From Escherichia phage BP32, in sequence record OR906198.1: a DNA stretch of 64,000 nt. One strand, given 5' to 3'. The position numbers were made by a program, and so were the translations under genes. The notes under the pieces are model-generated. The model made no database searches. It was not told the DNA's origin and worked only from the letters and a program-made list of their open reading frames with translations. Shown in pieces: positions 2,083-60,589 of this stretch; the first letter of the stretch is position 1; every line of letters starts with the position of its first letter.

Positions 2083-2106
2083 GGGAGCCTTCGGGCTCCC
2101 TTTTTT
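2083..2106 (+). terminator. rho-independent terminator
   Basis: GGGAGCC-TTCG-GGCTCCC hairpin followed by TTTTTT, directly after stop at 2079. Confidence 0.8.
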
Positions 2107-2130
2107 ATTTCAAAAATTTTTCATAAAACT

Positions 2131-2160
2131 GTTTACAAGCATAAAGCTTTATGGTACTAT
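2131..2160 (+). promoter_or_regulatory. T4-type early (sigma70) promoter
   Basis: -35 GTTTAC (2131-2136), 18-bp spacer, -10 TACTAT with upstream TGG; A/T-rich upstream region. Confidence 0.65.
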
Positions 2161-2194
2161 ACAACTATCAACTGATACGGATTTGGAGAATAAA

Positions 2195-3163
2195 ATGAAA
2201 ACTGTAACTATCAATAAAGGTATCTACTTCGGTAAAGAAATCTCTGGAACTTTTGAGCTCTTAGGCGAATGGTTCCCAGATAATGCTCCGGTAGATGCAC
2301 AAGGAGATGGTAAAGTTTTTGTTGAAATTGACGGTAAACGTCGCGGTGTTTGGGTTTACAAATCAGATATTTCATATGATGGTGTAAAAGTTGAAGAAGT
2401 TAAAGAATCATATGAAGATATGAAAACCCGCATTAATAAAAGATTTAATGTTATGGGAATGATGACGAATGGTATTATTAATGGAAATATTCGTTCATTA
2501 ATTATCTCTGGCGCAGCAGGTATTGGTAAAACGTATTCTTTAGATAAAGCTTTAAATAAAGCAAATGATATTGGATACATTGAATATAAAAGCATTAATG
2601 GTAAAATCTCTGGTATTGGTCTTTATGAGCAGCTTTGGAATAATCGTGAAGAGAACTCTGTCCTTTTGATTGATGATGTGGATGTTTTCTCTGATATGGA
2701 CATTCTTAATCTTCTGAAAGCTGCTCTGGACACTGGAGAGACCCGTAAAGTCTGCTGGAGCACTGCATCTTCTTACTTAGAAGAAAAAGGCATTGACCGT
2801 GAGTTTGAATTTAAAGGAACGATTGTTTTTATCACAAACGTTGATATTGACCGCGAATTAGACCGTGGTACTAAACTTGCCCCACACTTACAAGCATTAG
2901 TGTCCCGCTCAGTTTATTTAGATTTGGGTGTTCACACTAATGAAGAAATTATGGTCAGGGTTGAAGATGTTATTCTTTCAACCGACATGATGCAAAAGCG
3001 CGGTCTTTCTGATGAAGAAACTTATAAAGCATTATCATGGATGAAAGTTAATGTTAATCGTTTACGCAATGTTTCACTGCGTACTGCTCTTTATCTTGCT
3101 GACTTTATTATGACCGACAAAAACGGTTGGGAAGAAATTGCTGAGGTTACTCTTCTGAAATAA
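2195..3163 (+). CDS. P-loop NTPase (AAA-like ATPase), 322 aa
   Basis: Walker A GAAGIGKT and Walker B-like VLLIDDVD; ATG after GGAGAATAAA RBS; track ORF 2027 start is an upstream extension through the promoter. Confidence 0.7.
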   Translation: MKTVTINKGIYFGKEISGTFELLGEWFPDNAPVDAQGDGKVFVEIDGKRRGVWVYKSDISYDGVKVEEVKESYEDMKTRINKRFNVMGMMTNGIINGNIRSLIISGAAGIGKTYSLDKALNKANDIGYIEYKSINGKISGIGLYEQLWNNREENSVLLIDDVDVFSDMDILNLLKAALDTGETRKVCWSTASSYLEEKGIDREFEFKGTIVFITNVDIDRELDRGTKLAPHLQALVSRSVYLDLGVHTNEEIMVRVEDVILSTDMMQKRGLSDEETYKALSWMKVNVNRLRNVSLRTALYLADFIMTDKNGWEEIAEVTLLK

Positions 3164-3264
3164 TTCATAAGAGGACTTCTATGACAAAAAGGCAGTTCAG
3201 AAATAGATTATATGGACTGCCATTAAAAAGATGACTAGAATTAAACTGGTGAATGGAGGTAGTG

Positions 3265-3567
3265 ATGTTATACTCAAAGGCTCGTGAAATTTACGAAACT
3301 AAAATTAAAGAAGCAGTATTTCAATTCGCAACGACAATGCGATGGACAAATGACTGGGAGTATTCAAAAAATCATAAGAAGCCCATGGTGACAAGAAAGG
3401 CTCATATGTTAGTGTTAATAGACCGTGAGCAGATTAAAGCCCGAGAAGCCCTCCAGAATCATAAAAAGGCTGCCTTTGAATGGTTTATGGATAATACTGC
3501 TCCTGAGACTAAGAAAGCGGTAAGTGCATGGTTCAGTGGAAAAAATTGTGAAAGAAGTTTCTTTTAG
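3265..3567 (+). CDS. hypothetical protein (100 aa)
   Basis: Track ORF; ATG at 3265 follows GGAGG with 5-nt spacer. Confidence 0.5.
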   Translation: MLYSKAREIYETKIKEAVFQFATTMRWTNDWEYSKNHKKPMVTRKAHMLVLIDREQIKAREALQNHKKAAFEWFMDNTAPETKKAVSAWFSGKNCERSFF

Positions 3568-3569
3568 TT

Positions 3570-3599
3570 GTTTACAAGACTGTTCCTCTGTGGTACTAT
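3570..3599 (+). promoter_or_regulatory. T4-type early promoter (cassette copy 1)
   Basis: -35 GTTTAC, -10 TACTAT; 57-58 bp cassette nearly identical to 56752-56808. Confidence 0.65.
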
Positions 3600-3627
3600 A
3601 CAACTATCAACTACGGAGGAACAGAAA

Positions 3628-4155
3628 ATGAACGCTAAAGATATTTTCAACTTGGTAAATTACAACGATGGTAAATTTAAATCTGAAGCACAAAGCAAGT
3701 TCTTTAACGACATCTCAATCGGAGGTGAAATCACTGTTGATGGAGGACAAATTTACAAATCCCGTTGGAATTGGATCGTTATTATTGATGAGATCGGTAT
3801 TGTAGAAATTTACAAGAATACGAATAAAAATAGTACATTACACTGGTCTCGTGATACTAACGAACAGTACAAAAAGGATAAAGCATCTAAATTATCTCGT
3901 GTAACTCAAGAAGATATTGAGTTCATCAAGAAAGATATTTTAATGTATGATAACTTAATTGCTGAAGAGCAAGCTGTTATTGATAAATTTGACGAGATTA
4001 AAGCTTCTCGTGAAATTCCTGATTTTATGAAAGAATCAGTAAATGAACGATACACTCTCATTTCAGAGCGTATTGAAACTTACAAAAAGCAAAGAGCTGA
4101 ACGCCAAAATACTCTTCGGAAGTTTGAAGAACGGTTAAAGACGGTACTCGCATAA
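3628..4155 (+). CDS. hypothetical protein (175 aa)
   Basis: ATG after ACGGAGGAACAGAAA leader; track ORF 3568 start is a TTG extension through the promoter. Confidence 0.65.
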   Translation: MNAKDIFNLVNYNDGKFKSEAQSKFFNDISIGGEITVDGGQIYKSRWNWIVIIDEIGIVEIYKNTNKNSTLHWSRDTNEQYKKDKASKLSRVTQEDIEFIKKDILMYDNLIAEEQAVIDKFDEIKASREIPDFMKESVNERYTLISERIETYKKQRAERQNTLRKFEERLKTVLA

Positions 4156-4625: not shown

Positions 4626-5513
4626 ATGTCAGTCGTAATTAATAATGTCAATGCAGTAATTAAATCTTTAGTTAATAAAAAATCAAATGAATGGACTGTA
4701 CTTCAACACGACGAGTCAGATAAATTTTTTCATAAATTTAACCCAGTACTAAATTTAAATGTTATTGATAAAGATGTTCACGCCGAAATTTTAGATAAGT
4801 TTAAAGTTGATATTGGATTTGGATTAGAAAAACATTTACAACGAACAAACGGGTCTGGAATGCTTTTATCTAATCGCATCATGAAAGCCCTTAATAAAAT
4901 TGGAGCGTTGTCTCGCATTAACGCGAGTGAAATTCTTCGCAATTATAATAAAGGATATGACCTTTATGGTCGACTAATGCCGAAATTATCATTTGACCAA
5001 ATGATCGCAGATTTGTGGGAAAATCAACGACGATTATTAGCATTAGGCGCTCGATTAGCTAAAGGTCTAGATAAACAAATGATTTTTAAAACTAATAATA
5101 CAGAAGACCTTAAATGCTTTAAATTTAGTACTCGTGGAGATGATTATTACGTCAGAGCTCGCTCTACAGATTATGTTAATATGGGGCATCATCTCTGTTT
5201 AGCTTTTGAAATTTTAAAAGAAGCTGGAACATTAGAATATGTGTCTGGTGCTAAATGTCCGATTGGTTCAAGTTGTATTTTAATTTATCGCCCGGATGAA
5301 TCCAGTTCAACTAAATTGCCTACAAAACCTGTACCAGTTCATAGTAATGAAAAACATTCTGAACAAATTGATTATTTTAATAAGCAAATTGAAGAGCTGA
5401 ATATTTCTATTCAACAATATGACGATGAAATCTTTAGACTATCCGGATTGAGTAGTAAAGCTAAATCTGAACGTGAAAAATTAATTAAAATTGTTGATTT
5501 ACTTAAATCTTAA
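4626..5513 (+). CDS. hypothetical protein with C-terminal coiled coil; member 1 of a tandem paralogue array
   Basis: ATG after GAGTGAGGAAAAT RBS; C-terminal heptad-like segment; internal motif LLALGARLAKG resembles paralogues. Confidence 0.65.
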   Translation: MSVVINNVNAVIKSLVNKKSNEWTVLQHDESDKFFHKFNPVLNLNVIDKDVHAEILDKFKVDIGFGLEKHLQRTNGSGMLLSNRIMKALNKIGALSRINASEILRNYNKGYDLYGRLMPKLSFDQMIADLWENQRRLLALGARLAKGLDKQMIFKTNNTEDLKCFKFSTRGDDYYVRARSTDYVNMGHHLCLAFEILKEAGTLEYVSGAKCPIGSSCILIYRPDESSSTKLPTKPVPVHSNEKHSEQIDYFNKQIEELNISIQQYDDEIFRLSGLSSKAKSEREKLIKIVDLLKS

Positions 5514-5521
5514 GGAACACC

Positions 5522-6550
5522 ATGAAAACTCGTTCTCAAATTGAAGATATGGTTCGTAATGCCAGTTATACTCGTGATGTTATGACATTTTTGTGTGAAA
5601 ATAATTTAGACCTTAATAAAGTTAATTGTTCCATTCACGCCTTTAAACATCTGAATAGCAGTGAATGGGTGCGTAATTTTAGCGAAGCAGGGTATATTAC
5701 ACAAATGACGGCTCGTGAGCAGCTCACTGATTTCTGTAAAACTATCGATTATAAAAATCCTCTATTTGTTCAAGGCGTTGGTCAAAGTAAGGTCGATTTA
5801 TCATCTGGATTTTTTAATCCAAATCATTATCGTATTGAATGGAGATTTATTGCTCTGTTCCGCAAGCAACTAAAACAAATTTTATCAACTGCGAGTCGAT
5901 TAAAAGGTTCTGATATTAACTTAAAGAATCTGAAATTTGATGGTTATACTCTTCAGATGGAAGTAAGACCATTAAAAGAAAATAATAGAACTGCACGAAT
6001 TAGCTTTAAACCTAATACAAAAAATTCTCTTTCAATTTGTGAATGCCTTAAATCGCAGTTGACAGAAGCATTTAAGTATATGGATGTTGTTGCTGCTGTC
6101 CAGTCTAAGATTTCACAGCGTTTCGAACTATTTAAATTAGACACAACAACATATAAACTTGATATGATCGTTTCATTTAAATACGATTTTTTGAGAAAGG
6201 ACGAAGTCACACAAGAGAAAAAGCAGGAAGTGCAAGATAACTTAAATTTAAATTTATCCAATTACTCATCAAACGATCCTAAATTTTGGATGTATAGTTC
6301 AGGTAATAAAGATGCATGGAAATTCAATAAAGTGAATTTTCTTCCTATTGAAAATCCGAGTCTTAAACCTGTTGAAAAATGGCATGCAGATGCGATTGAA
6401 AAGTCTATCAAGGCAGTAGATGATGAACTCGTTAAAGCAACTAATGAAGTGTTAGAAGCTGAAAAGATGCTAGAAAAAGCTCAAGAAAAAGTCAAAAATC
6501 TCACGAAGCAACGTTCTAAACTGAACAATGCACTAAATGCACTGAACTAG
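5522..6550 (+). CDS. hypothetical protein with C-terminal coiled coil; paralogue array member 2 (342 aa)
   Basis: Track ORF; N-terminus MKTR..; motif FRKQLKQILSTASRL shared with next gene. Confidence 0.7.
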   Translation: MKTRSQIEDMVRNASYTRDVMTFLCENNLDLNKVNCSIHAFKHLNSSEWVRNFSEAGYITQMTAREQLTDFCKTIDYKNPLFVQGVGQSKVDLSSGFFNPNHYRIEWRFIALFRKQLKQILSTASRLKGSDINLKNLKFDGYTLQMEVRPLKENNRTARISFKPNTKNSLSICECLKSQLTEAFKYMDVVAAVQSKISQRFELFKLDTTTYKLDMIVSFKYDFLRKDEVTQEKKQEVQDNLNLNLSNYSSNDPKFWMYSSGNKDAWKFNKVNFLPIENPSLKPVEKWHADAIEKSIKAVDDELVKATNEVLEAEKMLEKAQEKVKNLTKQRSKLNNALNALN

Positions 6551-6579
6551 TTTACTTTACCACAGGGATGTGGTATAAT
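6550..6579 (+). promoter_or_regulatory. T4-type early promoter
   Basis: -35 GTTTAC, spacer TTTACCACAGGGATGTGG, -10 TATAAT. Confidence 0.65.
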
Positions 6580-6607
6580 GTTCTTACTTTCTACTGAGGA
6601 GATTAAT

Positions 6608-10238: not shown

Positions 10239-10685
10239 ATGATTACAGTAGATAAGTGGTTTAGAATTAATCGTGCTGATAAAGGGCTGTGTAATTACTG
10301 GCCGGAACTTAGTGCAGGTACTGTCTTTAAAGTTCGTGAACTCGCAAAAGAATGCGAAGATGATATAGAACCTGATACTGGAATTATTGAAATTGAACTT
10401 TCTGATGGAAAGATTATTAACATCTATGATAAGCCAATTACGTATTGGTGCTTATGGAATACTGAATCAGTAGAAAATGGCGAAATTGAAGAAGTTGTAG
10501 AACGAGCTGATCAAGCTCTTCATAAACCTAAAGCTGGATTTCAGGGTGAACGCATTTCATATGCATTATCTAAATCGGCGTTGAAAAAAGATATTGATGA
10601 TTATGAAGGAAATTTGATGCAAGCTGCGGCAGAATATATTGAATGGCTTGAAACTCAAATTTCTTTTTCTGACCGAGCGTTTTAA
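10239..10685 (+). CDS. hypothetical protein (148 aa) in the T4 pin/49.x position
   Basis: ATG at 10239 preceded by GGAG; track start 10221 is TTG; position relative to gene 49 resembles T4 pin but identity unverified. Confidence 0.5.
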   Translation: MITVDKWFRINRADKGLCNYWPELSAGTVFKVRELAKECEDDIEPDTGIIEIELSDGKIINIYDKPITYWCLWNTESVENGEIEEVVERADQALHKPKAGFQGERISYALSKSALKKDIDDYEGNLMQAAAEYIEWLETQISFSDRAF

Positions 10686-10704
10686 TACTTGAAAATAATA
10701 AATA

Positions 10705-10734
10705 CCCTTATCTATTTAAGGTAAGGGTTTTATT
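10705..10734 (+). promoter_or_regulatory. hairpin overlapping the gene 49 ribosome-binding site (terminator-like, translational control element)
   Basis: CCCTTA ... TAAGGG inverted repeat then TTTTATT immediately 5' of the gene 49 ATG at 10735; the 3' arm carries the AAGG/GGG SD. Confidence 0.5.
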
Positions 10735-14893: not shown

Positions 14894-15094
14894 ATGAATC
14901 CTGAATCTAAATTATCACAACGAATTGCCGAAGCTCGTCGTCAGTTCTTTGAAAATATGATAGCCCAAGGTATTGATGACGAAGTTTTTCTGAACTGGTT
15001 TTGGAATCACAAATATTCAAGCTGTTCAGGGGCAATATTAATATCAGCCGCAATGATGTATGAAGGCTGGAAAGGTGCCAAACAGTTTAGCTAA
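14894..15094 (+). CDS. hypothetical protein (66 aa)
   Basis: Track ORF; terminator immediately downstream. Confidence 0.55.
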   Translation: MNPESKLSQRIAEARRQFFENMIAQGIDDEVFLNWFWNHKYSSCSGAILISAAMMYEGWKGAKQFS

Positions 15095-15112
15095 GGGCTT
15101 CGGCCCTTTTTG
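15093..15112 (+). terminator. rho-independent terminator
   Basis: AAGGGC-TTCG-GCCCTT hairpin plus T-run. Confidence 0.75.
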
Positions 15113-17505: not shown

Positions 17506-17529
17506 AAACCAAAACAATGAGGATATTAA

Positions 17530-18732: not shown

Positions 18733-18752
18733 AGGGCTTCGGCCCTTTAGCT
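18731..18752 (+). terminator. rho-independent terminator after alpha-gt
   Basis: AAAGGGC-TTCG-GCCCTTT hairpin; T-run interrupted. Confidence 0.6.
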
Positions 18753-22655: not shown

Positions 22656-22710
22656 TTTATAAGAGATTATGCTTTAATTTATTAGAGTATAATCTCTATG
22701 GAGGAAAAAC

Positions 22711-24041: not shown

Positions 24042-24066
24042 AAAGGGCTTCGGCCCTTTATAATTT
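24042..24066 (+). terminator. rho-independent terminator after gene 45
   Basis: AAAGGGC-TTCG-GCCCTTT hairpin followed by A/T-rich stretch. Confidence 0.65.
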
Positions 24067-28796: not shown

Positions 28797-28878
28797 ATAC
28801 AAGTAATATAAATCTATACTTAGGAAAAATAGATGATTCTGGGCCCTTTGAATTCATTAAAAATTTTTTCACAAAATG

Positions 28879-28908
28879 GTTTACATCCCGGTTCCTTTAT
28901 GGTACTAT
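28879..28908 (+). promoter_or_regulatory. T4-type early promoter
   Basis: -35 GTTTAC, -10 TACTAT; leader nearly identical to that at 2161-2194. Confidence 0.65.
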
Positions 28909-28942
28909 ATAACTATCAACTGATACGGATTTGGAGAATGAA

Positions 28943-29323
28943 ATGAAAATCGCTATTTTGGTTATTGCATTGGGTCTTACTGGTTGTGTAGCTCAAGGAC
29001 CAGTAGTAAATCAGTCTGATGTAGGAAAAATTGTAAACTGTTCAAGCAAATTTTATAATCCTAATGTTAAGTGTTATAAAGAAGCTCCAAAACAGACAGT
29101 AGAACAAATGCAGGCGAATTTTGACGAAGCTATTCGTCCAGATGAATCTGCCCAAGCATATCGTAATTCAGATGTAATTACACGCGAAGAAAAAATTGAA
29201 AGCTACTGCGCTGAACTTTGGGCTAATTGGGCTAATAATTACCAATGGCGTACTGGTAAAAATGCTCCGATGGAGTATGTAGTGAATTCTTATAATTCAT
29301 GTGTAAAAAATTTGACTAAGTGA
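28943..29323 (+). CDS. lipoprotein (imm.1-position), 126 aa
   Basis: Signal peptide with lipobox LTGC; ATG at 28943 after GGAGAATGAA; own early promoter. Confidence 0.65.
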   Translation: MKIAILVIALGLTGCVAQGPVVNQSDVGKIVNCSSKFYNPNVKCYKEAPKQTVEQMQANFDEAIRPDESAQAYRNSDVITREEKIESYCAELWANWANNYQWRTGKNAPMEYVVNSYNSCVKNLTK

Positions 29324-32914: not shown

Positions 32915-34342
32915 GTGGTAGAAATTATTCTTTCTCATCTCATATTTGATCAAGCTTATTTTTCAAAAGTTTGGCCATATATGGATTCAGAATATTTTGA
33001 AAGTGGTCCAGCTAAAAATACATTCAAATTAATTAAATCTCATGTTAATGAGTACCATAGCGTTCCATCTATTAATGCGTTAAATGTTGCATTAGAAAAT
33101 AGTTCATTTACTGAAACAGAATATTCTGGTGTAAAAACACTTATTTCAAAACTAACCGATTCTCCGGAAGACCACAGCTGGTTAGTAAAAGAAACAGAAA
33201 AATATGTTCAGCAAAGGGCGATGTTTAATGCTACGTCTAAAATAATTGAAATTCAAACTAATGCTGAGCTTCCTCCGGAAAAACGAAATAAGAAAATGCC
33301 AGATGTAGGTGCTATTCCTGACATCATGCGCCAAGCATTATCAATTTCATTTGATAGCTACGTTGGTCATGATTGGATGGATGACTACGAAGCACGTTGG
33401 CTATCTTATATGAATAAAGCTCGTAAGGTTCCATTTAAACTCAAAATTCTAAATAAAATTACTAAAGGCGGAGCTGAAACTGGAACACTGAACGTTTTAA
33501 TGGCTGGTGTTAACGTCGGTAAGTCATTAGGTCTGTGTTCATTAGCAGCAGATTATTTGCAGCTCGGACATAATGTTCTTTACATTTCCATGGAAATGGC
33601 AGAAGAAGTTTGTGCTAAGCGTATTGATGCTAATATGCTTGATGTTTCTCTTGATGACATTGATGATGGGCATATTTCTTACGCTGAATATAAAGGAAAA
33701 ATGGAAAAATGGCGTGAGAAATCTACTCTTGGACGTTTAATCGTTAAACAGTATCCTACTGGTGGAGCAGACGCTAATACATTTCGGTCGCTTTTAAATG
33801 AATTAAAGCTCAAGAAGAATTTTGTTCCAACAATCATTATTGTTGACTATCTAGGTATTTGTAAATCTTGCCGCATCAGAGTTTATTCAGAAAATAGTTA
33901 CACAACTGTTAAAGCTATCGCAGAAGAATTACGTGCTCTGGCTGTTGAAACCGAAACTGTTCTTTGGACTGCAGCACAGGTTGGTAAACAAGCTTGGGAT
34001 TCTTCTGATGTTAACATGAGCGATATTGCAGAATCTGCCGGTCTTCCAGCAACAGCCGATTTTATGCTTGCGGTCATTGAAACCGAGGAGTTAGCAGCTG
34101 CTGAACAACAACTCATTAAGCAAATCAAATCACGATATGGTGATAAGAATAAATGGAATAAGTTTTTGATGGGTGTTCAAAAAGGAAATCAGAAATGGGT
34201 AGAAATTGAACAAGATTCTACTCCAACTGAAGTGAACGAAGTGGCAGGTTCACAGCAGATTCAAGCTGAGCAGAATCGCTATCAAAGAAACGAATCCGCT
34301 CGAGCTCAGTTAGATGCTTTGGCAAATGAATTAAAATTTTAG
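32915..34342 (+). CDS. 41: replicative DNA helicase gp41
   Basis: 475 aa; Walker A GVNVGKS; matches my recall of T4 gp41; GTG start after AAGGAG. Confidence 0.92.
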   Translation: MVEIILSHLIFDQAYFSKVWPYMDSEYFESGPAKNTFKLIKSHVNEYHSVPSINALNVALENSSFTETEYSGVKTLISKLTDSPEDHSWLVKETEKYVQQRAMFNATSKIIEIQTNAELPPEKRNKKMPDVGAIPDIMRQALSISFDSYVGHDWMDDYEARWLSYMNKARKVPFKLKILNKITKGGAETGTLNVLMAGVNVGKSLGLCSLAADYLQLGHNVLYISMEMAEEVCAKRIDANMLDVSLDDIDDGHISYAEYKGKMEKWREKSTLGRLIVKQYPTGGADANTFRSLLNELKLKKNFVPTIIIVDYLGICKSCRIRVYSENSYTTVKAIAEELRALAVETETVLWTAAQVGKQAWDSSDVNMSDIAESAGLPATADFMLAVIETEELAAAEQQLIKQIKSRYGDKNKWNKFLMGVQKGNQKWVEIEQDSTPTEVNEVAGSQQIQAEQNRYQRNESARAQLDALANELKF

Positions 34343-34371
34343 TTTACAAGCTGACAAGACTATGGTATAGT
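34342..34371 (+). promoter_or_regulatory. T4-type early promoter
   Basis: -35 GTTTAC overlapping the gene 41 stop, -10 TATAGT flanked by inverted repeat CAAGACT / AGTCTTG. Confidence 0.6.
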
Positions 34372-34401
34372 AGTCTTGTTGGTTAAATTGGGGAAATTAT
34401 T

Positions 34402-34593
34402 ATGGAATTAGCAAAGATTGTTTTTATTGGCTGGTTTGAAAATGGTAATATGTTTACCAAAGAAATCACTATGGATGTGTCTGATAAAGATCAAATTCTA
34501 TGGGTCACTTCACAACTTGCTGAAGTTAATAAAGCTTTAGTTAAAGCATTTGTTAATGATAAAAAAGTTTTTGAATCTGATTGGCGAGGGTAA
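34402..34593 (+). CDS. small protein in the T4 dmd (61.5) position
   Basis: 63 aa directly downstream of gene 41; T4 Dmd is about 60 aa; identity by position only. Confidence 0.45.
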   Translation: MELAKIVFIGWFENGNMFTKEITMDVSDKDQILWVTSQLAEVNKALVKAFVNDKKVFESDWRG

Positions 34594-34594: not shown

Positions 34595-34837
34595 ATGCAT
34601 ACGGTTTTATTTAAACCTACTCCGTATAATGTTAGGAAAAATACTCAATTCAAAGCACTTGTTGCAGATACGTGGGAATTGGTGTTAGATATTCCAGCAG
34701 AAGAAAGTCCTCCATTTGGTCGAGTGGAATTTATTAAGTTTGCTGTGCGCCCTACGAAGCGACAGATTCGTCAATGCAAAAGATACTTTCGTAAAATCGT
34801 CAAGTTAGAGAAACAGTTATTGATGCTAGTAAAATAG
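34595..34837 (+). CDS. hypothetical protein (80 aa), 61.x block
   Basis: In-frame ATG at 34595 within track ORF 34550..34837. Confidence 0.5.
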   Translation: MHTVLFKPTPYNVRKNTQFKALVADTWELVLDIPAEESPPFGRVEFIKFAVRPTKRQIRQCKRYFRKIVKLEKQLLMLVK

Positions 34838-34839
34838 TA

Positions 34840-34869
34840 GTTTACAAGCTGATAGAGTTGTGTTATAGT
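34840..34869 (+). promoter_or_regulatory. T4-type early promoter
   Basis: -35 GTTTAC, -10 TATAGT flanked by inverted repeat GCTGATAG / CTATCAGC. Confidence 0.6.
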
Positions 34870-34900
34870 AATTCTATCAGCTAATCGCGGAGAAAAGAAA

Positions 34901-35155
34901 ATGATGCTAGTTAATAGAGAATATCAGTTTAAATCAGAAGAAGATTTGGAAAAATTCGCAAGTGGTTGTGAACTGAATAGACGCACAGCTAAAGTCATAG
35001 GATTAAAACCCTTTACAGTTCTAGATTGTGAAGTTTCTAAATTCCGCAGAGGGTGTTCTATTAGCGGTCATGCTCTGGTTGATGGGAACACATTTTTCTT
35101 TGTTTTTAGCGTCAGAGAACTTTTATTGATTAACGAACTTGAGGAAATAAAATAG
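34901..35155 (+). CDS. hypothetical protein (84 aa), 61.x block
   Basis: Track ORF; own early promoter. Confidence 0.55.
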   Translation: MMLVNREYQFKSEEDLEKFASGCELNRRTAKVIGLKPFTVLDCEVSKFRRGCSISGHALVDGNTFFFVFSVRELLLINELEEIK

Positions 35156-36911: not shown

Positions 36912-36960
36912 GCGTCGTCCTCCTTTAAATTAAATATTTATCGCAAATTTTACAAAATTT

Positions 36961-36990
36961 GTTTACTTTCTCAGCTTGTTGTGGTATTAT
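36961..36990 (+). promoter_or_regulatory. T4-type early promoter of the nuclease-like gene
   Basis: -35 GTTTAC, -10 TATTAT; inverted repeat CTCAGC (spacer) / GCTGAG (next to SD). Confidence 0.6.
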
Positions 36991-37015
36991 AAAATAAACT
37001 GCTGAGGATAATATA

Positions 37016-38355
<1,340 letters not shown>

Positions 38356-45676: not shown

Positions 45677-46359
45677 TGTTTGATTTTATTATAGATTTTG
45701 AAACAATGGGAAGTGGTGAAAAGGCAGCTGTTATTGATTTGGCTGTTATTGCCTTTGACCCTAATCCAGAAGTAGTTGAAACATTCGATGAATTAGTTTC
45801 GCGCGGCATTAAAATCAAATTTGATTTAAAAAGTCAAAAAGGACATCGTCTTTTTACTAAAAGCACTATCGAATGGTGGAAAAATCAGTCTCCTGAAGCT
45901 CGAAAAAATATTGCACCGTCAGATGAAGATGTAAGCACTATCGATGGTATTGTAAAATTTAATGATTACATCAATGCACATAACATCGATCCTTGGAAAT
46001 CTCAAGGCTGGTGCCGTGGAATGTCGTTTGATTTTCCAATTTTAGTCGATCTCATTCGCGATATTCAACGTCTTAATGGCGTTTCTGAGAATGAACTTGA
46101 CACATTTAAGTTAGAACCGTGTAAATTCTGGAATCAGCGTGATATTCGTACCAGAATTGAAGCACTTCTCCTTGTTCGTGATATGACCACGTGTCCTCTT
46201 CCAAAAGGAACTTTAGATGGATTCGTTGCACATGATTCTATTCATGACTGTGCGAAAGACATCCTGATGATGAAGTATGCTTTGCGATATGCTATGGGTC
46301 TTGAAGATGCTCCGTCAGAGGAAGAGTGCGATCCTCTATCTCTTCCAACAAAACGATAA
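45676..46359 (+). CDS. dexA: exonuclease A (DEDD 3'-5' exonuclease)
   Basis: 227 aa; N-terminal acidic motif DFETMG typical of DnaQ-like exonucleases; length equals T4 DexA. Confidence 0.85.
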   Translation: MFDFIIDFETMGSGEKAAVIDLAVIAFDPNPEVVETFDELVSRGIKIKFDLKSQKGHRLFTKSTIEWWKNQSPEARKNIAPSDEDVSTIDGIVKFNDYINAHNIDPWKSQGWCRGMSFDFPILVDLIRDIQRLNGVSENELDTFKLEPCKFWNQRDIRTRIEALLLVRDMTTCPLPKGTLDGFVAHDSIHDCAKDILMMKYALRYAMGLEDAPSEEECDPLSLPTKR

Positions 46360-46365
46360 AAAGTT

Positions 46366-46395
46366 GTTTACTTCCTCGGTTAGTTGTGGTATTAT
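46366..46395 (+). promoter_or_regulatory. T4-type early promoter
   Basis: -35 GTTTAC, -10 TATTAT with upstream TGTGG. Confidence 0.6.
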
Positions 46396-46422
46396 AACAC
46401 CATAGCTACTGAGGATAATAAA

Positions 46423-46923
46423 ATGAAAATTTATCGTGTTGAATCATCTTTTAGTATTCTTAATTGTGAAGATGCTATAACAATACGTCGAAATCTTTGT
46501 GTTCAAATAACGCCATACAGGAGTATAATAGATTCATGGAGCGAAGAGTGGTTATTACACGTAGGTTATGACAGACCTAATTTTATGCATCATAGCGATG
46601 ATAATAAAAGAATTCCTTTACCACACGAAGATAAACTATTAGTTAAAAACGCTAATATAGTAATTAATACTAAGTTCAAGAAAGATTATGTTGGAGTAGA
46701 ATATCATATTCCAGGATGGTTTATAGCTCTTTATCATTTTGCTTTCGCTAGTGAATATGATATGATGAGATGGTTCACACGAGAAGAGCGGGAAGAATTA
46801 TCTTCTAAAGGATTTTATCTCGCTGTATACGAAGTTTCTGAAGATGAAGTTATCATTGGCGGGCACCAAGTAATGTTCCGCAAATCGCATGCTGAACTCA
46901 TAGATTTTATTGAAATGAGATAA
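46423..46923 (+). CDS. hypothetical protein (166 aa), T4 motB position
   Basis: ATG at 46423 after GAGGATAATAAA; T4 MotB is about 162 aa; identity by position only. Confidence 0.5.
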   Translation: MKIYRVESSFSILNCEDAITIRRNLCVQITPYRSIIDSWSEEWLLHVGYDRPNFMHHSDDNKRIPLPHEDKLLVKNANIVINTKFKKDYVGVEYHIPGWFIALYHFAFASEYDMMRWFTREEREELSSKGFYLAVYEVSEDEVIIGGHQVMFRKSHAELIDFIEMR

Positions 46924-47544: not shown

Positions 47545-48033
47545 ATGATTATTAATATTGGTGAAATTGCTCGTGTATCTGATAAATCCCGTTCTAAAGC
47601 AGCAGGAAAATTGGTTGAAATTGTAAGCATTCAGCTTAAACGTGGTGTTAAAGACGAAGATTCTGAAGTAAAAGTGCGTATCATTCCTAAAGATGGAAAG
47701 TCTAAACCTCAGTTTGGCTATGTTCGTGCGAAATTTCTTGAATCTGCGTTTTTGAAAGCTGTTCCTGCTAAAGGAATTGAAACGATTGATACTTCGCATG
47801 TAGGTGTAGACTTTAAGTGGAAACTCGGTCAGGCTATTAAGTTCATTGCTCCCTGTGAATTTAAATTTATCAAAGATGATGGTGTGGCTGTTTATACTCG
47901 CGCTATGTGCGCATACATTACCGATCAGTGGGTAGAAGACGGTGTTAAGCTGTATAATGTGGTATTTTTAGGAACATACAAAGTCATTCCTGAAAGCTGG
48001 ATTAAACACTATAGCAAAGCTCTCTATGCATAA
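47545..48033 (+). CDS. hypothetical protein (162 aa), paralogue of previous gene
   Basis: Track ORF; C-terminus ITDQWVEDGVKLYNVVFLGTYKVIP. Confidence 0.6.
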   Translation: MIINIGEIARVSDKSRSKAAGKLVEIVSIQLKRGVKDEDSEVKVRIIPKDGKSKPQFGYVRAKFLESAFLKAVPAKGIETIDTSHVGVDFKWKLGQAIKFIAPCEFKFIKDDGVAVYTRAMCAYITDQWVEDGVKLYNVVFLGTYKVIPESWIKHYSKALYA

Positions 48034-48057
48034 AGTTTAAAATTTTTTCATAAAACT

Positions 48058-48087
48058 ATATACATCAGTAGTTGATTATGGTACTAT
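48058..48087 (+). promoter_or_regulatory. early promoter variant with 13-bp perfect inverted repeat
   Basis: -35-like ATATAC, -10 TACTAT; ATCAGTAGTTGAT (48064-48076) and ATCAACTACTGAT (48094-48106) flank the -10. Confidence 0.5.
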
Positions 48088-48130
48088 ATCAATATCAACT
48101 ACTGATACAGAAAACAACTTGGAGAATAAA

Positions 48131-48400
48131 ATGGAAAACTTAATTATCATCGAACAATCTTTCAACGATTATGGTATGGCTTACGGTTATCGTGCGATAA
48201 TGGAAGATTCTCGTGGATGTGTTATCGATATTGCTGAATGTAAAGATTTACTGCAGCTTTTGAAGATTGTTCGTAAAAATTGGGATTGTGAAAACATTAA
48301 AGTTCGTGTTGTAACGGAAGAAGAAACTGTTTTTCATGATGTAAAATTTGCCAAAGGTGCTGCTACTATTCTGAAACGCATCGCTCCACTGTTCAATTAA
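48131..48400 (+). CDS. hypothetical protein (89 aa)
   Basis: ATG at 48131 after GGAGAATAAA; track start 48119 is TTG. Confidence 0.6.
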   Translation: MENLIIIEQSFNDYGMAYGYRAIMEDSRGCVIDIAECKDLLQLLKIVRKNWDCENIKVRVVTEEETVFHDVKFAKGAATILKRIAPLFN

Positions 48401-54210: not shown

Positions 54211-55149
54211 ATGTACAATATTAAATGCCTGACCAAAAACGAACAAGCTGAAATTGTCAAACTGTATTCAAGTGGTAATTATACCCAGCAGGAATTGGCT
54301 GATTGGCAAGGTGTATCGGTTGACACAATCCGTCGTGTTTTGAAAAATGCTGAAGAAGTTGAGCGCTCCAAAGTTACCATTAGCGGTGACATTACAGTTG
54401 AAGTTAAGAGTGATGTAGCTATTGCTCCAGTTGCTAAATCTGACATTATTTGGAATGCATCTAAAAAATTCATTTCAATTACTGTTGATGGCGTAACTTA
54501 TAACGCAACTCCTAATACTCATTCAAACTTCCAGGAAATTCTTAATCTGCTTGTTGCAGATAAATTGGAAGAAGCGGCACAAAAAATTAATGTTCGTCGC
54601 GCTGTTGAAAAATATATTTCCGGTGATGTTCGAATTGAAGGTGGAAGCCTGTTCTATCAAAATATTGAATTGCGGTCTGGTTTAGTTGATCGTATTCTTG
54701 ATTCGATGGAAAAAGGTGAAAACTTTGAATTTTATTTTCCGTTCTTGGAAAATCTGCTGGAAAACCCAAGCCAAAAAGCAGTATCTCGACTCTTTGATTT
54801 CTTGGTAGCAAACGATATTGAAATTACAGAAGACGGCTACTTCTATGCTTGGAAAGTAGTTCGCAGCAATTACTTTGACTGTCACTCAAATACCTTTGAT
54901 AACAGTCCTGGTAAAGTAGTTAAAATGCCACGTACTCGTGTGAATGACGATGATACACAAACTTGTTCTCGTGGTCTGCATGTGTGTTCTAAATCTTATA
55001 TTCGTCACTTTGGCAGTTCAACCAGCCGAGTTGTAAAAGTTAAAGTACATCCTCGCGATGTAGTATCAATTCCAATTGATTACAACGATGCTAAAATGCG
55101 TACCTGCCAATACGAAGTAGTTGAAGACGTTACTGAACAATTTAAATAA
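54211..55149 (+). CDS. rIIB: rIIB protein
   Basis: 312 aa; length and position match T4 rIIB. Confidence 0.93.
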   Translation: MYNIKCLTKNEQAEIVKLYSSGNYTQQELADWQGVSVDTIRRVLKNAEEVERSKVTISGDITVEVKSDVAIAPVAKSDIIWNASKKFISITVDGVTYNATPNTHSNFQEILNLLVADKLEEAAQKINVRRAVEKYISGDVRIEGGSLFYQNIELRSGLVDRILDSMEKGENFEFYFPFLENLLENPSQKAVSRLFDFLVANDIEITEDGYFYAWKVVRSNYFDCHSNTFDNSPGKVVKMPRTRVNDDDTQTCSRGLHVCSKSYIRHFGSSTSRVVKVKVHPRDVVSIPIDYNDAKMRTCQYEVVEDVTEQFK

Positions 55150-55163
55150 GGGCTTCGGCCCTT
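55148..55163 (+). terminator. terminator-like hairpin after rIIB (no clear T-run)
   Basis: AAGGGC-TTCG-GCCCTT including the rIIB stop codon. Confidence 0.45.
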
Positions 55164-55374: not shown

Positions 55375-55398
55375 AAGGGGCTTCGGCCCTTTTGTTTT
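55375..55398 (+). terminator. rho-independent terminator
   Basis: AAGGGGC-TTCG-GCCCTT hairpin followed by TTTGTTTT. Confidence 0.7.
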
Positions 55399-55735: not shown

Positions 55736-56228
55736 TGACTTGACTAGTGAAATGAAGGTCAAAATTGCTGATACAGCAAGATACTCTTTAAAACAAAACC
55801 CGAACCAGGATAAAGCAGAAGTTATCGAAAGATGCCGTATCGCTGTGTACGCAGAGTTTTTTGTAGCAGATTGGCTAAGCGGGTATGTCAACAAAGGCCA
55901 AGAGGATGTTAATGATCCGTATACATACGCATGGGATGTATTGGCACATCCAAAATACTGCGGGCTTCGTGTAGAAGTTAAGACACATCAAACTGACTCA
56001 CGTTGGATTTCGGTAACAACAGGATGCAGCGGAGAGTATCCATACGGTTCTGGAATAAATCTAGGGCCCATTCTGAATCATCAAGTCGCTGACTGTATAA
56101 TTATATTCAACACTAAAGAAATTCATCCAGGTGTCATCCAGTACACTCCGAAGTTCATCGGTGATAGAGAAGACCTTCGTAAGGTTGTAAGAAAAAGCAA
56201 CTACAACGGATGGTATCTTTCTATTTAA
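55671..56228 (+). CDS. denB: endonuclease IV DenB (start uncertain)
   Basis: 185 aa track ORF, same length as T4 DenB and near rIIB; the 5' 65 nt overlap the upstream gene, so the true start may be downstream. Confidence 0.55.
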   Translation: MQKTNPGLQRLFQIPTFTLSNSDLTSEMKVKIADTARYSLKQNPNQDKAEVIERCRIAVYAEFFVADWLSGYVNKGQEDVNDPYTYAWDVLAHPKYCGLRVEVKTHQTDSRWISVTTGCSGEYPYGSGINLGPILNHQVADCIIIFNTKEIHPGVIQYTPKFIGDREDLRKVVRKSNYNGWYLSI

Positions 56229-56245
56229 AAAATTTTCACAAAACA

Positions 56246-56275
56246 GTTTACATACCACAAGGACCGTGGTACTAT
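56246..56275 (+). promoter_or_regulatory. T4-type early promoter
   Basis: -35 GTTTAC, spacer with CCACAAGGACCGTGG, -10 TACTAT. Confidence 0.65.
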
Positions 56276-56302
56276 ACAACTATCAGCTACGGAGGAGTAA
56301 AA

Positions 56303-56566
56303 ATGAAATTTAAATTTTATTACGCTAAACATAAAATAACTGATGAGTTTGTGTCAGTTGAATATTCTAGCGACGATGAAGGTATGATTTATACTCGCTT
56401 GGGACTATCGCATTGGGAGTCTGATACGCCTTATTTTTCAACTCCCGAAGAAATTACACGCTTAGTTAATGGTCATATGAATGACCACTGGAATGTAATT
56501 CTTTCAGATAGTCTTAAAGCGGCTATTAATAGTAATGAAATGAAAATCGCTGAGATTGAACTATGA
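56303..56566 (+). CDS. hypothetical protein (87 aa)
   Basis: ATG at 56303 after ACGGAGGAGTAAAA; track start 56210 runs through the promoter. Confidence 0.6.
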   Translation: MKFKFYYAKHKITDEFVSVEYSSDDEGMIYTRLGLSHWESDTPYFSTPEEITRLVNGHMNDHWNVILSDSLKAAINSNEMKIAEIEL

Positions 56567-56744: not shown

Positions 56745-56751
56745 AAAAGTT

Positions 56752-56781
56752 GTTTACAAGACTGTTCCTCTGTGGTATTAT
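56752..56781 (+). promoter_or_regulatory. T4-type early promoter (cassette copy 2)
   Basis: -35 GTTTAC, -10 TATTAT; cassette nearly identical to 3570-3627. Confidence 0.6.
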
Positions 56782-56808
56782 TACCCTATCAACTACGGAG
56801 GAACAGAA

Positions 56809-56922
56809 ATGAAAAAGATTGTTAAAGCTATATGGAATGTAGTTATAATACTAGTAGTTTTGAGTATATTCCCAATCGTTTTAATGATTGATGTATTAAA
56901 CGCTTACTTTGGATTTATATGA
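56809..56922 (+). CDS. hydrophobic micropeptide (37 aa)
   Basis: ATG after ACGGAGGAACAGAA leader; MKKIVKAIWNVVIILVVLSIFPIVLMIDVL. Confidence 0.45.
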   Translation: MKKIVKAIWNVVIILVVLSIFPIVLMIDVLNAYFGFI

Positions 56923-59833: not shown

Positions 59834-59860
59834 GGGAGAGCCGAGGCTCTCCCTTTTTAT
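59834..59860 (+). terminator. rho-independent terminator after the gene 52 block
   Basis: GGGAGAGCC ... GGCTCTCCC hairpin followed by TTTTT. Confidence 0.8.
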
Positions 59861-59882
59861 TTTAAAATTTTTTCACAAAACG

Positions 59883-59912
59883 GTTTACAACCAAAGCATA
59901 CTGTGGTACTAT
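59883..59912 (+). promoter_or_regulatory. T4-type early promoter for motA
   Basis: -35 GTTTAC, -10 TACTAT; upstream A/T tract AAAATTTTTTCACAAAA. Confidence 0.65.
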
Positions 59913-59953
59913 ACAACTATCAACTACTGATACAGAATTACGGAGATTAGAAA

Positions 59954-60589
59954 ATGTCTAAAGTAACTTACATCATCAAAGCTTCTAACGATGTTCTGAA
60001 TGAAAAAACTGCTGCGATTTTAATTACCATTGCTAAGAAAGATTTCATTACAGCTGCAGAAGTTCGTGAGGTGCATCCAGATTTAGGTAATGCAGTAGTT
60101 AATAGTAATATTGGGGTATTGATTAAAAAAGGCCTAGTGGAGAAATCCGGTGATGGATTAATCATTACAGGTGAAGCTCAGGATATTATTTCAAATGCGG
60201 CAACTTTATACGCACAGGAAAACGCTCCTGAACTGCTGAAAAAACGAGCAACTCGTAAAGCTCGCGAAATTACTTCTGATATGGAAGAAGATAAAGACTT
60301 CATGTTAAAACTTTTAGATGAAAATGGATTTGTTCTTAAAAAAGTTGAAACTTATCGTAGTAACTATCTCGCTATTTTAGAAAAACGCACTCACGGAATT
60401 CGCAATTTTGAAATTAACAACAATGGAAATATGCGAATTTTTGGATACAAAATGATGGAACATCATATTCAGAAATTTACTGATATCGGAATGTCATGTA
60501 AAATCGCTAAAAACGGTAATGTGTATCTTGACATTAAACGCTCGGCAGAAAACATTGAAGCTGTAATCACCGTAGCATCTGAACTGTGA
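59954..60589 (+). CDS. motA: middle-transcription activator MotA
   Basis: 211 aa; near-identical to my recall of T4 MotA. Confidence 0.92.
   Translation: MSKVTYIIKASNDVLNEKTAAILITIAKKDFITAAEVREVHPDLGNAVVNSNIGVLIKKGLVEKSGDGLIITGEAQDIISNAATLYAQENAPELLKKRATRKAREITSDMEEDKDFMLKLLDENGFVLKKVETYRSNYLAILEKRTHGIRNFEINNNGNMRIFGYKMMEHHIQKFTDIGMSCKIAKNGNVYLDIKRSAENIEAVITVASEL

What the first reader, a model, noticed from the sequence alone, without database searches (positions are those of the whole stretch)
3570..3627. Duplicated 57-58-bp promoter-leader cassette driving two unrelated genes
The sequence GTTTACAAGACTGTTCCTCTGTGG ... CTATCAACTACGGAGGAACAGAA(A)ATG occurs at 3570-3627 and again at 56752-56808, differing only around the -10 hexamer. 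The downstream ORFs are unrelated (a 175-aa protein versus a 37-aa hydrophobic peptide). A second family of leaders (GGTACTATACAACTATCAACTGATACGGATTTGGAGAAT(A/G)AAATG) recurs at 2152-2197 and 28901-28945, with variants at 48080-48133 and 59905-59956. Together with near-identical AGGGCTTCGGCCCT terminators at 15093, 18731, 24042, 55148 and 55375, this looks like portable regulatory cassettes that could mediate modular gene shuffling by homologous recombination. I recall this being described as promoter-early stem-loop elements in T4-type phages but cannot verify it here.
Basis: partly seen in the sequence, partly recalled or inferred. Interest (0 to 1): 0.5.

Follow-up and report, generated by a model that had tools for sequence, protein, structure and literature searches.

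The report
Duplicated T4 early-promoter stem-loop cassette
Two genes 53 kb apart in this T4-like phage have near-identical early-promoter and leader cassettes, a known kind of element (PeSL) also present in T4, and each cassette hides a hairpin that would block translation of its gene on read-through transcripts.

Summary
A ~60-nt promoter and leader occurs at 3570-3630 (upstream of nrdC.8) and 56752-56811 (upstream of the 37-aa ndd.4 peptide), 91% identical, with no such match expected by chance. The window is a Tequatrovirus, and T4 carries both copies. The ndd locus is a published PeSL example.

The promoter spacer pairs with the Shine-Dalgarno region in a 15-bp stem (-23 to -25 kcal/mol), with the -10 box and the inferred start site in the loop. 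Only read-through RNA can form this stem. Dhakavirus and Gaprivervirus relatives have different arm sequences that keep the same pairing, including one compensatory G-C/U-A switch.

The two copies exchange sequence. Loop alleles are swapped between the loci in several isolates, and two whole haplotypes occur at both loci. Half-cassette chimeras exist. Neighbouring cassettes carry indel breakpoints in ime09, PST, T4 and HY01.

No gene-content change falls at these two cassettes themselves. Across the window, breakpoints are no more frequent at cassettes than at other intergenic sites. The element is therefore of a known kind. The early-promoter hairpin that masks the ribosome-binding site is a modest new angle.

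The parts
3566..3630 (+). Cassette A: early promoter plus leader of nrdC.8. -35 TTTACA at 3571-3576; 5' arm CTGTTCCTCTGTGGT at 3580-3594; -10 TACTAT at 3594-3599; loop at 3595-3609, containing the inferred start site near 3606; 3' arm ACTACGGAGGAACAG at 3610-3624, with SD GGAGG at 3615-3619; ATG at 3628.
   Evidence: The orthologous site in SA20RB is annotated as a T4-type early promoter. T4 has the same cassette.
56748..56811 (+). Cassette B: early promoter plus leader of ndd.4 (37-aa membrane peptide). -35 TTTACA at 56753-56758; 5' arm at 56762-56776; -10 TATTAT at 56776-56781; loop at 56777-56791; 3' arm at 56792-56806, with SD at 56797-56801; ATG at 56809.
   Evidence: T4 orthologue.
3628..4155 (+). 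nrdC.8 (175 aa), the gene driven by cassette A.
56809..56922 (+). ndd.4 (37-aa hydrophobic peptide), the gene driven by cassette B.
56206..56305 (+). Neighbouring early promoter, 506 nt upstream of cassette B, with a hybrid family-1-like leader (GCTACGGAGGAG) driving an ORF268 homologue. This is a hot spot for indel breakpoints near 56288-56295.
2091..2197 (+). nrdC.10 early promoter with the family-2 leader, preceded by a canonical terminator. In phage HY01 a promoter-ORF-terminator module is inserted here.
28839..28945 (+). imm.1 early promoter with the family-2 leader. In T4 the same promoter carries the family-1 spacer, making it a chimera.
46326..46425 (+). motB.2 early promoter with an unrelated spacer-to-SD hairpin (17 bp, dG -23.7, z -7.6).
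36921..37018 (+). Paralogue of the motB.2 cassette, with arm changes that preserve pairing. It heads a 541-nt segment absent from T4.
34302..34404 (+). dmd early promoter with a hairpin straddling the -10 box (z -5.6). The SD is not masked.
34800..34903 (+). Second copy of the dmd-type promoter, with a hairpin straddling the -10 box (z -4.2). It heads a promoter plus 84-aa ORF module (34818-35148) that T4 lacks.
48018..48133 (+). Variant family-2 leader cassette. A window-versus-T4 indel starts at its start codon (48138).
59843..59956 (+). motA early promoter with a variant family-2 leader, preceded by a canonical terminator.
15094..15107 (+). AGGGCTTCGGCCCT hairpin (GC stem with a UUCG loop) followed by a T-run. 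It looks like an intrinsic terminator.
18733..18746 (+). The same AGGGCTTCGGCCCT hairpin.
24044..24057 (+). The same AGGGCTTCGGCCCT hairpin.
55149..55162 (+). The same AGGGCTTCGGCCCT hairpin, located after rIIB.
55377..55390 (+). GGGGCTTCGGCCCT variant. The terminator scan calls it with a T-rich tail.

Best explanation
The two repeats are orthologues of the T4 early promoters and leaders of nrdC.8 and ndd.4. They are T-even-type PeSL cassettes, each made of an AT-rich/UP region, a -35 TTTACA, a 17-nt spacer, a TGn plus -10 element, a short leader with SD GGAGG, and the start codon.

They resemble each other beyond the general early-promoter consensus for two reasons. First, both carry the same nested hairpin. 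The spacer (CUGUUCCUCUGUGGU) pairs with the leader and SD (ACUACGGAGGAACAG), with the -10 box and the start site in the loop. Second, the two copies are repeatedly homogenised by ectopic gene conversion.

Proposed mechanism, inferred rather than shown: a transcript started at the cassette's own promoter begins about 4 nt before the 3' arm and lacks the 5' arm. Its GGAG Shine-Dalgarno is therefore free, both for ribosomes and probably for RegB cleavage. A transcript reading through from upstream contains both arms, folds, and masks the SD. The gene is then translated only from its own immediate-early promoter. This is the design already known for T4 e, soc, 49 and I-TevI, but with an early promoter nested in the hairpin instead of a late one.

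Because of their 24+24-nt identical arms and the conserved GGTACTATACAACTATCAACT core, such cassettes also serve as patches of homology for T4's recombination system. This produces conversions, half-cassette chimeras and some gene insertions and deletions, as the PeSL model proposes.
For: Identity and orthology. The window is 96-97% identical to Tequatrovirus genomes. T4 has both cassettes. The orthologous site is annotated as a T4 early promoter in SA20RB. The sigma-70 scan finds TTTACA-17-TACTAT/TATTAT with TG, matching the PST/T4 PeSL consensus TTTACW-N17-TAYWAT.

Hairpin. It is a 15-bp stem with dG -25.5 and -23.2 kcal/mol, z -6.0 and -4.5. The leader alone has dG about 0 to -7.

Pairing conservation. 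In Tequatrovirus all 5 internal stem substitutions are wobble-preserving in the sense RNA, and 95% of cells are paired. In Dhakavirus and Gaprivervirus the arms differ but 94.7% of cells are paired, with one G-C/U-A compensatory pair at 5 versus 5 sequences and 9/500 shuffles reaching the score. A further variant is CTCCGTTAG/CTAACGGAG. Unrelated spacer-to-SD hairpins occur at motB.2 and its paralogue. Strong hairpins are specific to promoter-bearing upstream regions, 5/18 versus 3/97, P=0.002, and the same scan recovers the known gene 49 hairpin.

Strand. The minus strand or DNA forms only about 9 bp.

Gene conversion. Loop alleles are swapped between loci, and two full haplotypes are shared between loci. 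The swaps are present in several independent isolates. JS98 nrdC.8 carries an ndd.4-type 5' half.

Shuffling at cassettes.

Literature. PeSLs. RBS-masking hairpins and RegB.
Against: No transcription start site has been mapped here, and I found no such data in the library. Whether the 5' arm is absent from the cassette's own transcripts is inferred from the usual distance between the -10 box and the start site.

Within Tequatrovirus there are no double compensatory changes, and the two outermost pairs break in T4-like haplotypes.

Upstream of nrdC.8, Mosigvirus and Gaprivervirus have promoter-nested hairpins that do not mask the SD. SD masking therefore cannot be the only selected function of such hairpins.

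For the recombination role, there are no gene-content breakpoints at cassettes A or B themselves, and no enrichment of breakpoints at cassettes relative to intergenic DNA.
Confidence: 0.72

Rival explanations
1. The nested hairpin is the attenuator or insulator half of a PeSL. In read-through RNA it stops or pauses transcription, or it forms a protective 3' end for the upstream gene's mRNA. SD masking is then incidental.
For: Arbiol et al. showed that one PeSL stem-loop reduced downstream lacZ expression about as much as rrnB T1. The hairpins begin within about 15 nt of the upstream gene's stop codon. The Mosigvirus and Gaprivervirus designs do not mask the SD yet are conserved. All 5 strong nested hairpins are at promoters with no canonical upstream terminator, and 0 of 4 promoters with a terminator have one.
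Against: None of the four hairpin designs is followed by a U-run. The terminator scan does not call these sites, although it does call the GGGCTTCGGCCC elements. The terminator complementarity is not significant (P=0.15). In three independent arm families the 3' arm is exactly the SD.
Confidence: 0.3
2. The inverted repeat acts at the DNA level, as a cruciform or single-strand hairpin that targets recombination (for example cleavage by endonuclease VII) or modulates promoter opening. This would make the cassette a recombination hot spot by itself.
For: Arbiol et al. speculated that PeSL stem-loops could be targets of a DNA-binding recombination protein. Exchanges between cassettes are observed. 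The plus-strand DNA fold is still non-random (dG -11, z -4.3).
Against: Three of the 15 pairs are G·T, and all 5 tolerated substitutions create or keep G·U. These pairs become C·A mismatches on the other strand. The minus strand folds to only 9 bp (dG -6.9, z -2.1), whereas a cruciform needs both strands. T4 homologous recombination needs only short homology, so no special structure is required.
Confidence: 0.08
3. The similarity is only the strong T4 early-promoter consensus plus chance, with no specific relationship between the two sites.
For: At least 8 promoters in the window share UP/-35/TGn/-10 and initial-transcribed-region consensus blocks. T4 early promoters are known to have extended consensus regions.
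Against: The spacer and leader are non-consensus positions, yet they are 100% identical here against medians of 29% and 35% for other promoter pairs. Zero matches are expected by chance. The same pairing of loci recurs in Dhakavirus with different sequences.
Confidence: 0.02

Closest known systems
PeSL (promoter-early stem-loop) cassettes of T4-type phages (Arbiol et al. 2010, PMC2839356; Comeau et al. 2014, PMC4122927)
   Same: Composite element with an AT-rich region, a sigma-70-type early promoter, a stem-loop, an SD and a start codon. It lies in hyperplastic regions upstream of small genes of unknown function. Copies are similar enough to recombine. The T4/PST promoter consensus TTTACW-N17-TAYWAT is matched. 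The ndd.4/ORF268-269 locus is the papers' own Fig. 6A example.
   Different: In the PST/T4 description the stem-loops lie just upstream of the promoter and are proposed to act as terminators or attenuators. Here the stem encloses the -10 box and start site, its 3' arm is the SD, and there is no U-tract. No gene-content change maps to these two copies. Mini-circles were not tested.
T4 RBS-masking hairpins with a nested late promoter (genes e, soc, 49 and I-TevI; reviewed in PMC3014915)
   Same: The SD is sequestered in a helix whose 5' strand lies upstream of an internal promoter. Long read-through transcripts are therefore translationally silent and promoter-proximal transcripts are active. 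The same scan that finds cassettes A and B also finds the gene 49 hairpin in this window.
   Different: The nested promoter is an early sigma-70-type promoter, not a gp55 late promoter. The predicted effect is restriction to the immediate-early pulse rather than a delay to late times. There is no experimental support for these two genes.
T4 early promoters (Pe), the 'uber' UP/-35/TGn/-10 class (PMC2988021)
   Same: GTTTAC -35, gTGgTAnnAT extended -10, A/T-rich UP element and a conserved initial transcribed region.
   Different: The consensus does not explain the identical spacer and leader, or their complementarity to each other.
C(UUCG)G tetraloop hairpins in T4 intercistronic regions (recalled from Tuerk et al. 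1988, not checked here)
   Same: The AGGGCTTCGGCCCT elements are GC stems closed by a UUCG loop and followed by T-runs.
   Different: They are separate elements from the promoter cassette. Only some lie next to an early promoter.

Membership tests
PeSL | Sigma-70-type early promoter (-35 and -10 at about 17 nt) | tested here: met
   TTTACA-17-TACTAT (A) and TTTACA-17-TATTAT (B), both with TG. These match the PST/T4 PeSL consensus quoted.
PeSL | Sequence able to form a stable stem-loop within or next to the promoter | tested here: met
   A 15-bp stem, dG -25.5 and -23.2, z -6.0 and -4.5. [quoted passage not shown]
PeSL | [quoted passage not shown] | tested here: met
   Read directly from the sequences. 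B has ATATTTTTAAAAAAGTT upstream. Both end in GGAGGAACAGAAA(A)ATG.
PeSL | Location in hyperplastic regions, upstream of small or unknown-function ORFs | tested here: met
   The nrdC.x and ndd.x clusters. The window-versus-T4 comparison shows many indels in these regions.
PeSL | The stem-loop terminates or attenuates upstream transcription | tested here: inconclusive
   There is no U-tract, and the terminator scan does not call these sites. Function cannot be tested in silico. The complementarity with canonical terminators is suggestive only.
PeSL | Copies coincide with insertion, deletion or replacement breakpoints between close relatives | tested here: inconclusive
   Met for neighbouring cassettes: 56246 in ime09, PST and T4; nrdC.10 in HY01; also 34818-35148, 36947 and 48138. 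Not met for cassettes A and B themselves. There is no enrichment over intergenic background (P=0.64).
PeSL | Recombination between copies, including mini-circle formation | tested here: inconclusive
   Exchange between copies is supported by swapped loop alleles and shared haplotypes. Mini-circles cannot be tested with these tools.
T4 nested-promoter RBS-masking hairpin (e, soc, 49, I-TevI type) | The SD and/or AUG is paired in a helix in the long transcript | tested here: met
   GGAGG is fully paired in the minimum-free-energy and centroid folds. The pairing is conserved with different arms in other genera.
T4 nested-promoter RBS-masking hairpin (e, soc, 49, I-TevI type) | The internal promoter's transcripts start downstream of the 5' arm | not testable with these tools
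   Inferred from geometry. The -10 box ends at 3599, so the start is expected near 3606, and the 3' arm starts at 3610. No mapped 5' ends were found.
T4 nested-promoter RBS-masking hairpin (e, soc, 49, I-TevI type) | The nested promoter is a late (TATAAATA, gp55) promoter | tested here: not met
   The promoter is of the early sigma-70 type. The element therefore works like this family but is not a member of it as described.
T4 early promoter (Pe) | GTTTAC -35, N14, gTGgTAnnAT, an UP element and a conserved initial transcribed region | tested here: met
   and 19 such sites in the window.
Rfam RNA families | Match to any curated covariance model | tested here: not met
   No hits at gathering threshold across the whole window.

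The most novel reading that the evidence does not exclude
Early-promoter-nested hairpins that mask the Shine-Dalgarno sequence may form a conserved regulatory class in Tevenvirinae hyperplastic regions. Examples are nrdC.8, ndd.4, motB.2 and their paralogues. They would gate translation by transcript origin: only RNA started at the gene's own immediate-early promoter is translated (and exposed to RegB), while read-through RNA is silent. The nrdC.8 and ndd.4 copies evolve in concert by ectopic gene conversion across about 55 kb in at least two genera, and selection keeps the two arms complementary. This would give the 'SL' of T-even PeSLs a defined RNA-level function. It would also explain why intact cassettes persist while reassorted halves lose the fold.
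Probability: 0.45. Interest if true: 0.45.

Novelty: already known. Interest (0 to 1): 0.3.

Why it matters
As submitted, the finding rediscovers T4 early-promoter/PeSL cassettes, so it adds no new kind of element. It does supply clean comparative evidence for two points that the PeSL papers left open. First, the stem-loop in the T-even cassettes at nrdC.8 and ndd.4 seems to be constrained at the sense-RNA level and masks the ribosome-binding site. This extends the T4 e/soc/49/I-TevI logic to early promoters and predicts strictly promoter-of-origin translation of small hyperplastic-region genes. Second, cassettes do exchange sequence ectopically, as gene conversions and half-cassette chimeras, which is direct support for their role as recombination linkers. 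However, they account for only a minority of gene-content changes. Both points can be tested with standard T4 genetics and 5'-end RNA-seq.

Tried and rejected
1. Chance or consensus-only similarity. Rejected.
2. Canonical intrinsic terminator. The hairpins have no U-run and the scan does not call them.
3. Known RNA family. Rfam finds no hit.
4. Assembly artefact as the cause of the swapped loop alleles. Rejected, because the swaps occur at 100% identity in several independently sequenced isolates.
5. Global enrichment of indel breakpoints at cassettes. It is significant only against a naive uniform null and vanishes against an intergenic null, so I do not claim it.
6. Complementarity between nested hairpins and upstream terminators. 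The trend is in the right direction but is not significant.
7. Miller et al. 2003 (PMC150520) is not held in the library. Searches for T4 start-site maps and for nrdC.8 or ndd.4 experiments found nothing useful. The only hit was a transcriptome mention of nrdC.8 in a DRT1 defence paper.
8. The IMG/VR pattern scan gave only 9 loci. Bulk extraction of cassettes from the ~500 INPHARED Tequatrovirus genomes was not possible with these tools.

Full report
OBSERVATION. The repeat exists as described. GTTTACAAGACTGTTCCTCTGTGG occurs at 3570-3593 and 56752-56775. CTATCAACTACGGAGGAACAGAAA occurs at 3604-3627 and 56786-56809. Each is found exactly twice, with none expected in 100 dinucleotide shuffles. 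The copies differ by five substitutions between the -10 hexamer and the first transcribed bases, and by one A before the ATG. Over 57 nt from the -35 element they are 91% identical. This is the top value among all 171 pairs of early-promoter cassettes in the window (median 51%). The non-consensus spacer and leader are both 100% identical, against medians of 29% and 35%. The second leader family and the AGGGCTTCGGCCCT hairpins are also confirmed, with coordinates off by 1-2 nt. The downstream ORFs are 175 aa and 37 aa and are unrelated.

CONTEXT. The window is a Tequatrovirus, 96-97% identical to many T4-like coliphages. Its + strand corresponds to the T4 minus strand. Copy A is the promoter and leader of nrdC.8. 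Copy B is that of ndd.4, a 37-aa membrane peptide in the ndd.1-ndd.6 cluster of tiny ORFs. T4 has both copies with a few substitutions, and about 500 database phages carry the cassette, typically at two places each. An independent annotation (phage SA20RB) labels the site orthologous to copy A as a T4-type early promoter. The sigma-70 scan finds TTTACA-17-TACTAT/TATTAT with an extended -10 TG.

At least 19 early promoters in the window share a long consensus covering the UP element, GTTTAC, gTGGTAyTAT and ACAACTATCAACT.

The spacer between the -35 and -10 elements (CTGTTCCTCTGTGGT) is complementary to the leader (ACTACGGAGGAACAG). As RNA the cassette folds into a 15-bp stem with a 15-nt loop. 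The free energies are -25.5 and -23.2 kcal/mol, with z-scores of -6.0 and -4.5. The loop holds the -10 box and the inferred start site. The 3' arm holds the Shine-Dalgarno GGAGG.

A transcript begun at this promoter would start about 4 nt before the 3' arm and lack the 5' arm. The leader alone is essentially unstructured. Only read-through RNA from upstream can form the stem and bury the SD. This is the arrangement known for T4 genes e, soc, 49 and I-TevI, where a late promoter sits inside an RBS-masking hairpin. Here the nested promoter is an early one.

The exposed GGAG followed by an A-rich tract also fits the description of RegB cleavage sites, and RegB is blocked by secondary structure. 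That link is inference only.

IS THE PAIRING SELECTED? Within Tequatrovirus there are ten distinct haplotypes. Eight of the 15 pairs never vary. Five vary on one side only, and every such change (C/U or A/G opposite G or U) keeps a standard pair in the sense RNA. Only the two outermost pairs break. No double compensatory change is seen. This evidence is suggestive and no more.

The same five changes would be C·A mismatches on the other strand, and the minus strand folds to only 9 bp. That argues for an RNA-level rather than a cruciform constraint.

Other genera give stronger evidence. Upstream of nrdC.8 there are four unrelated designs, and each has its 5' arm in the promoter spacer:
- Tequatrovirus: the spacer pairs with the SD.
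- Dhakavirus (JS98, JS10): CTCCAGTAG pairs with CTACTGGAG, so the spacer again pairs with the SD.
- Mosigvirus: GGTCTAT... pairs with ...ATAGACC around the -10 box, and the SD is free.
- Gaprivervirus (VR7, VR25, VR26): CAGTATGGGA pairs with TCCCATACTG, with TATAAT in the loop and the SD free.

Upstream of ndd.4 homologues:
- Dhakavirus has CATCTCCATTAG/CTAATGGAGATG, which is paralogous to its own nrdC.8 cassette.
- Gaprivervirus has CATCTCCGGTGGTTG/CAACTACTGGAGATG.
- A further lineage has CTCCGTTAG/CTAACGGAG.

On the 11 Dhakavirus and Gaprivervirus sequences, 94.7% of cells are paired. One pair switches G-C to U-A in 5 versus 5 sequences, and 9 of 500 shuffles reach the observed score.

Unrelated spacer-to-SD hairpins also occur at the motB.2 promoter (46366; dG -23.7, z -7.6) and at its paralogue at 36961. 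Those two differ by changes that preserve pairing, including U-A to C-G.

Across all genes in the window, strong upstream hairpins (z<-3) are found at 5 of 18 promoter-bearing sites and at 3 of 97 others (Fisher P=0.002). The scan recovers the known gene 49 hairpin as a positive control.

Because two of the four nrdC.8 designs leave the SD free, SD masking cannot be the only function of promoter-nested hairpins. The PeSL authors' attenuator or insulator function remains a serious rival. However, none of these hairpins has a U-tract, and the terminator scan does not call them. All five strong nested hairpins lie at promoters with no canonical terminator just upstream, but the numbers are too small for significance (P=0.15).

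RECOMBINATION. The loop comes in two alleles. ACTATACAACTATCA is usual at nrdC.8, and A(T/C)TATTACCCTATCA is usual at ndd.4.

In Yersinia phage ZN18, ECO07P4/P5 and DCP2, the nrdC.8 locus carries the ndd.4 allele. In phage G8 (100% match), and probably in slur03/08/14, Lutter and others (98.8% matches, loop sequences not read), ndd.4 carries the nrdC.8 allele. Two complete 55-nt haplotypes occur at both loci in different genomes. JS98 nrdC.8 has a 5' half identical to the Dhakavirus ndd.4 cassette, which breaks one pair. These are ectopic gene conversions across about 55 kb.

The halves of the cassette also reassort. T4's imm.1 promoter joins the family-1 spacer to the family-2 leader. The window's promoter at 56246 joins another spacer to a family-1-like leader. 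Both chimeras fold weakly.

Gene content changes at neighbouring cassettes. After the same promoter core at 56246-56288, ime09 and PST have the family-2 leader followed by ORF269 and ORF268. T4 has that leader fused to the last 8 codons of ORF268. The window has ORF268 alone. This is the locus in Fig. 6A of Comeau et al. 2014. In HY01 a 161-aa ORF with its own promoter is inserted at the nrdC.10 promoter, bounded by a 39-nt repeat made of terminator, UP element and -35.

LIMITS OF THE SHUFFLING CLAIM. No relative sampled shows a gene-content change at cassettes A or B themselves. Of 18 indels or replacements between the window and T4, 4 have a breakpoint in an early-promoter cassette. That is P=0.003 against random positions but P=0.64 against intergenic positions. 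Many of the other indels are T4 homing-endonuclease or intron insertions. Most junctions lie in short start/stop-codon microhomologies such as ATGAAAA or TTATG. Cassette-mediated exchange is real but contributes only part of the picture, which is also how Comeau et al. phrase it.

COMPARISON AND VERDICT. The element meets the structural definition of a PeSL: promoter, stem-loop, AT-rich upstream region, SD and start codon, and location in a hyperplastic region. It is orthologous to sequences in T4 itself, so it is already known as a kind. It works like the nested-promoter RBS-masking hairpins of e, soc, 49 and I-TevI but fails that family's 'late promoter' feature. The most novel reading that remains defensible is a conserved class of early-promoter hairpins that gate translation by transcript origin, with concerted evolution between nrdC.8 and ndd.4. 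This reading is plausible (about 0.45) and testable but only moderately surprising. The steps shown are the repeat, orthology, fold, pairing conservation, conversions, chimeras and breakpoints. The steps inferred are the start-site position, translational masking in vivo, RegB involvement, and the selective reason for immediate-early-only expression.

Noticed in passing
window 22645-22713: A strong hairpin (dG -20.5, z -7.3) lies just upstream of gene 45.2. It encloses GCTT-N12-TATAAT, which looks like a MotA-type middle promoter. This would be a 'promoter-middle stem-loop' analogous to the PmSLs reported for phage nt-1. The sequence is identical in T4.
   Followed up: partly
window 10670-10737: The known gene 49 (endonuclease VII) RBS-masking hairpin was recovered by the same scan. 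It served as a positive control.
   Followed up: yes
window 6550-6610 and 51753-51810: A second duplicated promoter pair (nrdC.4 and rIIA.1). The spacers are 93% identical and contain their own small hairpin, CCACA(A/G)GGATGTGG, between the -35 and -10 elements. The leaders differ.
   Followed up: partly
window 34818-35148: A module of promoter plus 84-aa ORF that T4 lacks. It is inserted between gene 61.4 and the sp promoter. Its promoter is a 78%-identical copy of the dmd promoter 498 nt upstream. This looks like a PeSL-plus-ORFan cassette.
   Followed up: partly
window 36947-37489: A 541-nt segment absent from T4 (in the gene 61-dam intergenic region). It begins with a paralogue of the motB.2 promoter cassette.
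   Followed up: partly
window 51353-51418: The window lacks T4's 1117-nt segment at T4 2793-3911, which holds mobA, 60.1 and the gene 60 translational-bypass region. The topoisomerase large-subunit gene therefore appears unsplit and lacks the 50-nt hop.
   Followed up: no
window 11740-11743, 13019-13039, 17514-17539, 38895-38977: T4's I-TevII intron in nrdD and the mobC, mobB and segF homing-endonuclease genes are absent from this phage. The mobC site is flanked in T4 by a 21-nt duplication of the nrdG start.
   Followed up: no
window 56304-56566; L004 (T4) 5497-5603: T4 retains only an 8-codon remnant (MKIAEIEL) of the ORF268 homologue that is intact in this window. The deletion junction is at an ATGAAA(A)T microhomology.
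   Followed up: yes
many indel junctions, e.g. 18915/19510, 49232/49604, 48138/48339, 55454/55657: Most window-versus-T4 indel junctions lie in short direct repeats at start/stop codons (ATGAAAA, TTATG, AAAGGAAA). This suggests microhomology-mediated deletion or insertion at translation-initiation regions rather than at promoters.
   Followed up: partly
window 56246 and 56752: The two family-1-related promoters are direct repeats 506 nt apart, flanking ORF268, ndd.6 and ndd.5. This is the geometry from which Arbiol et al. obtained PeSL mini-circles.
   Followed up: no
window 3628-4155 (nrdC.8): A 2026 paper on the DRT1 defence system lists T4 nrdC.8 among transcripts that go down in DRT1-expressing cells. 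No function is known for the protein.
   Followed up: partly
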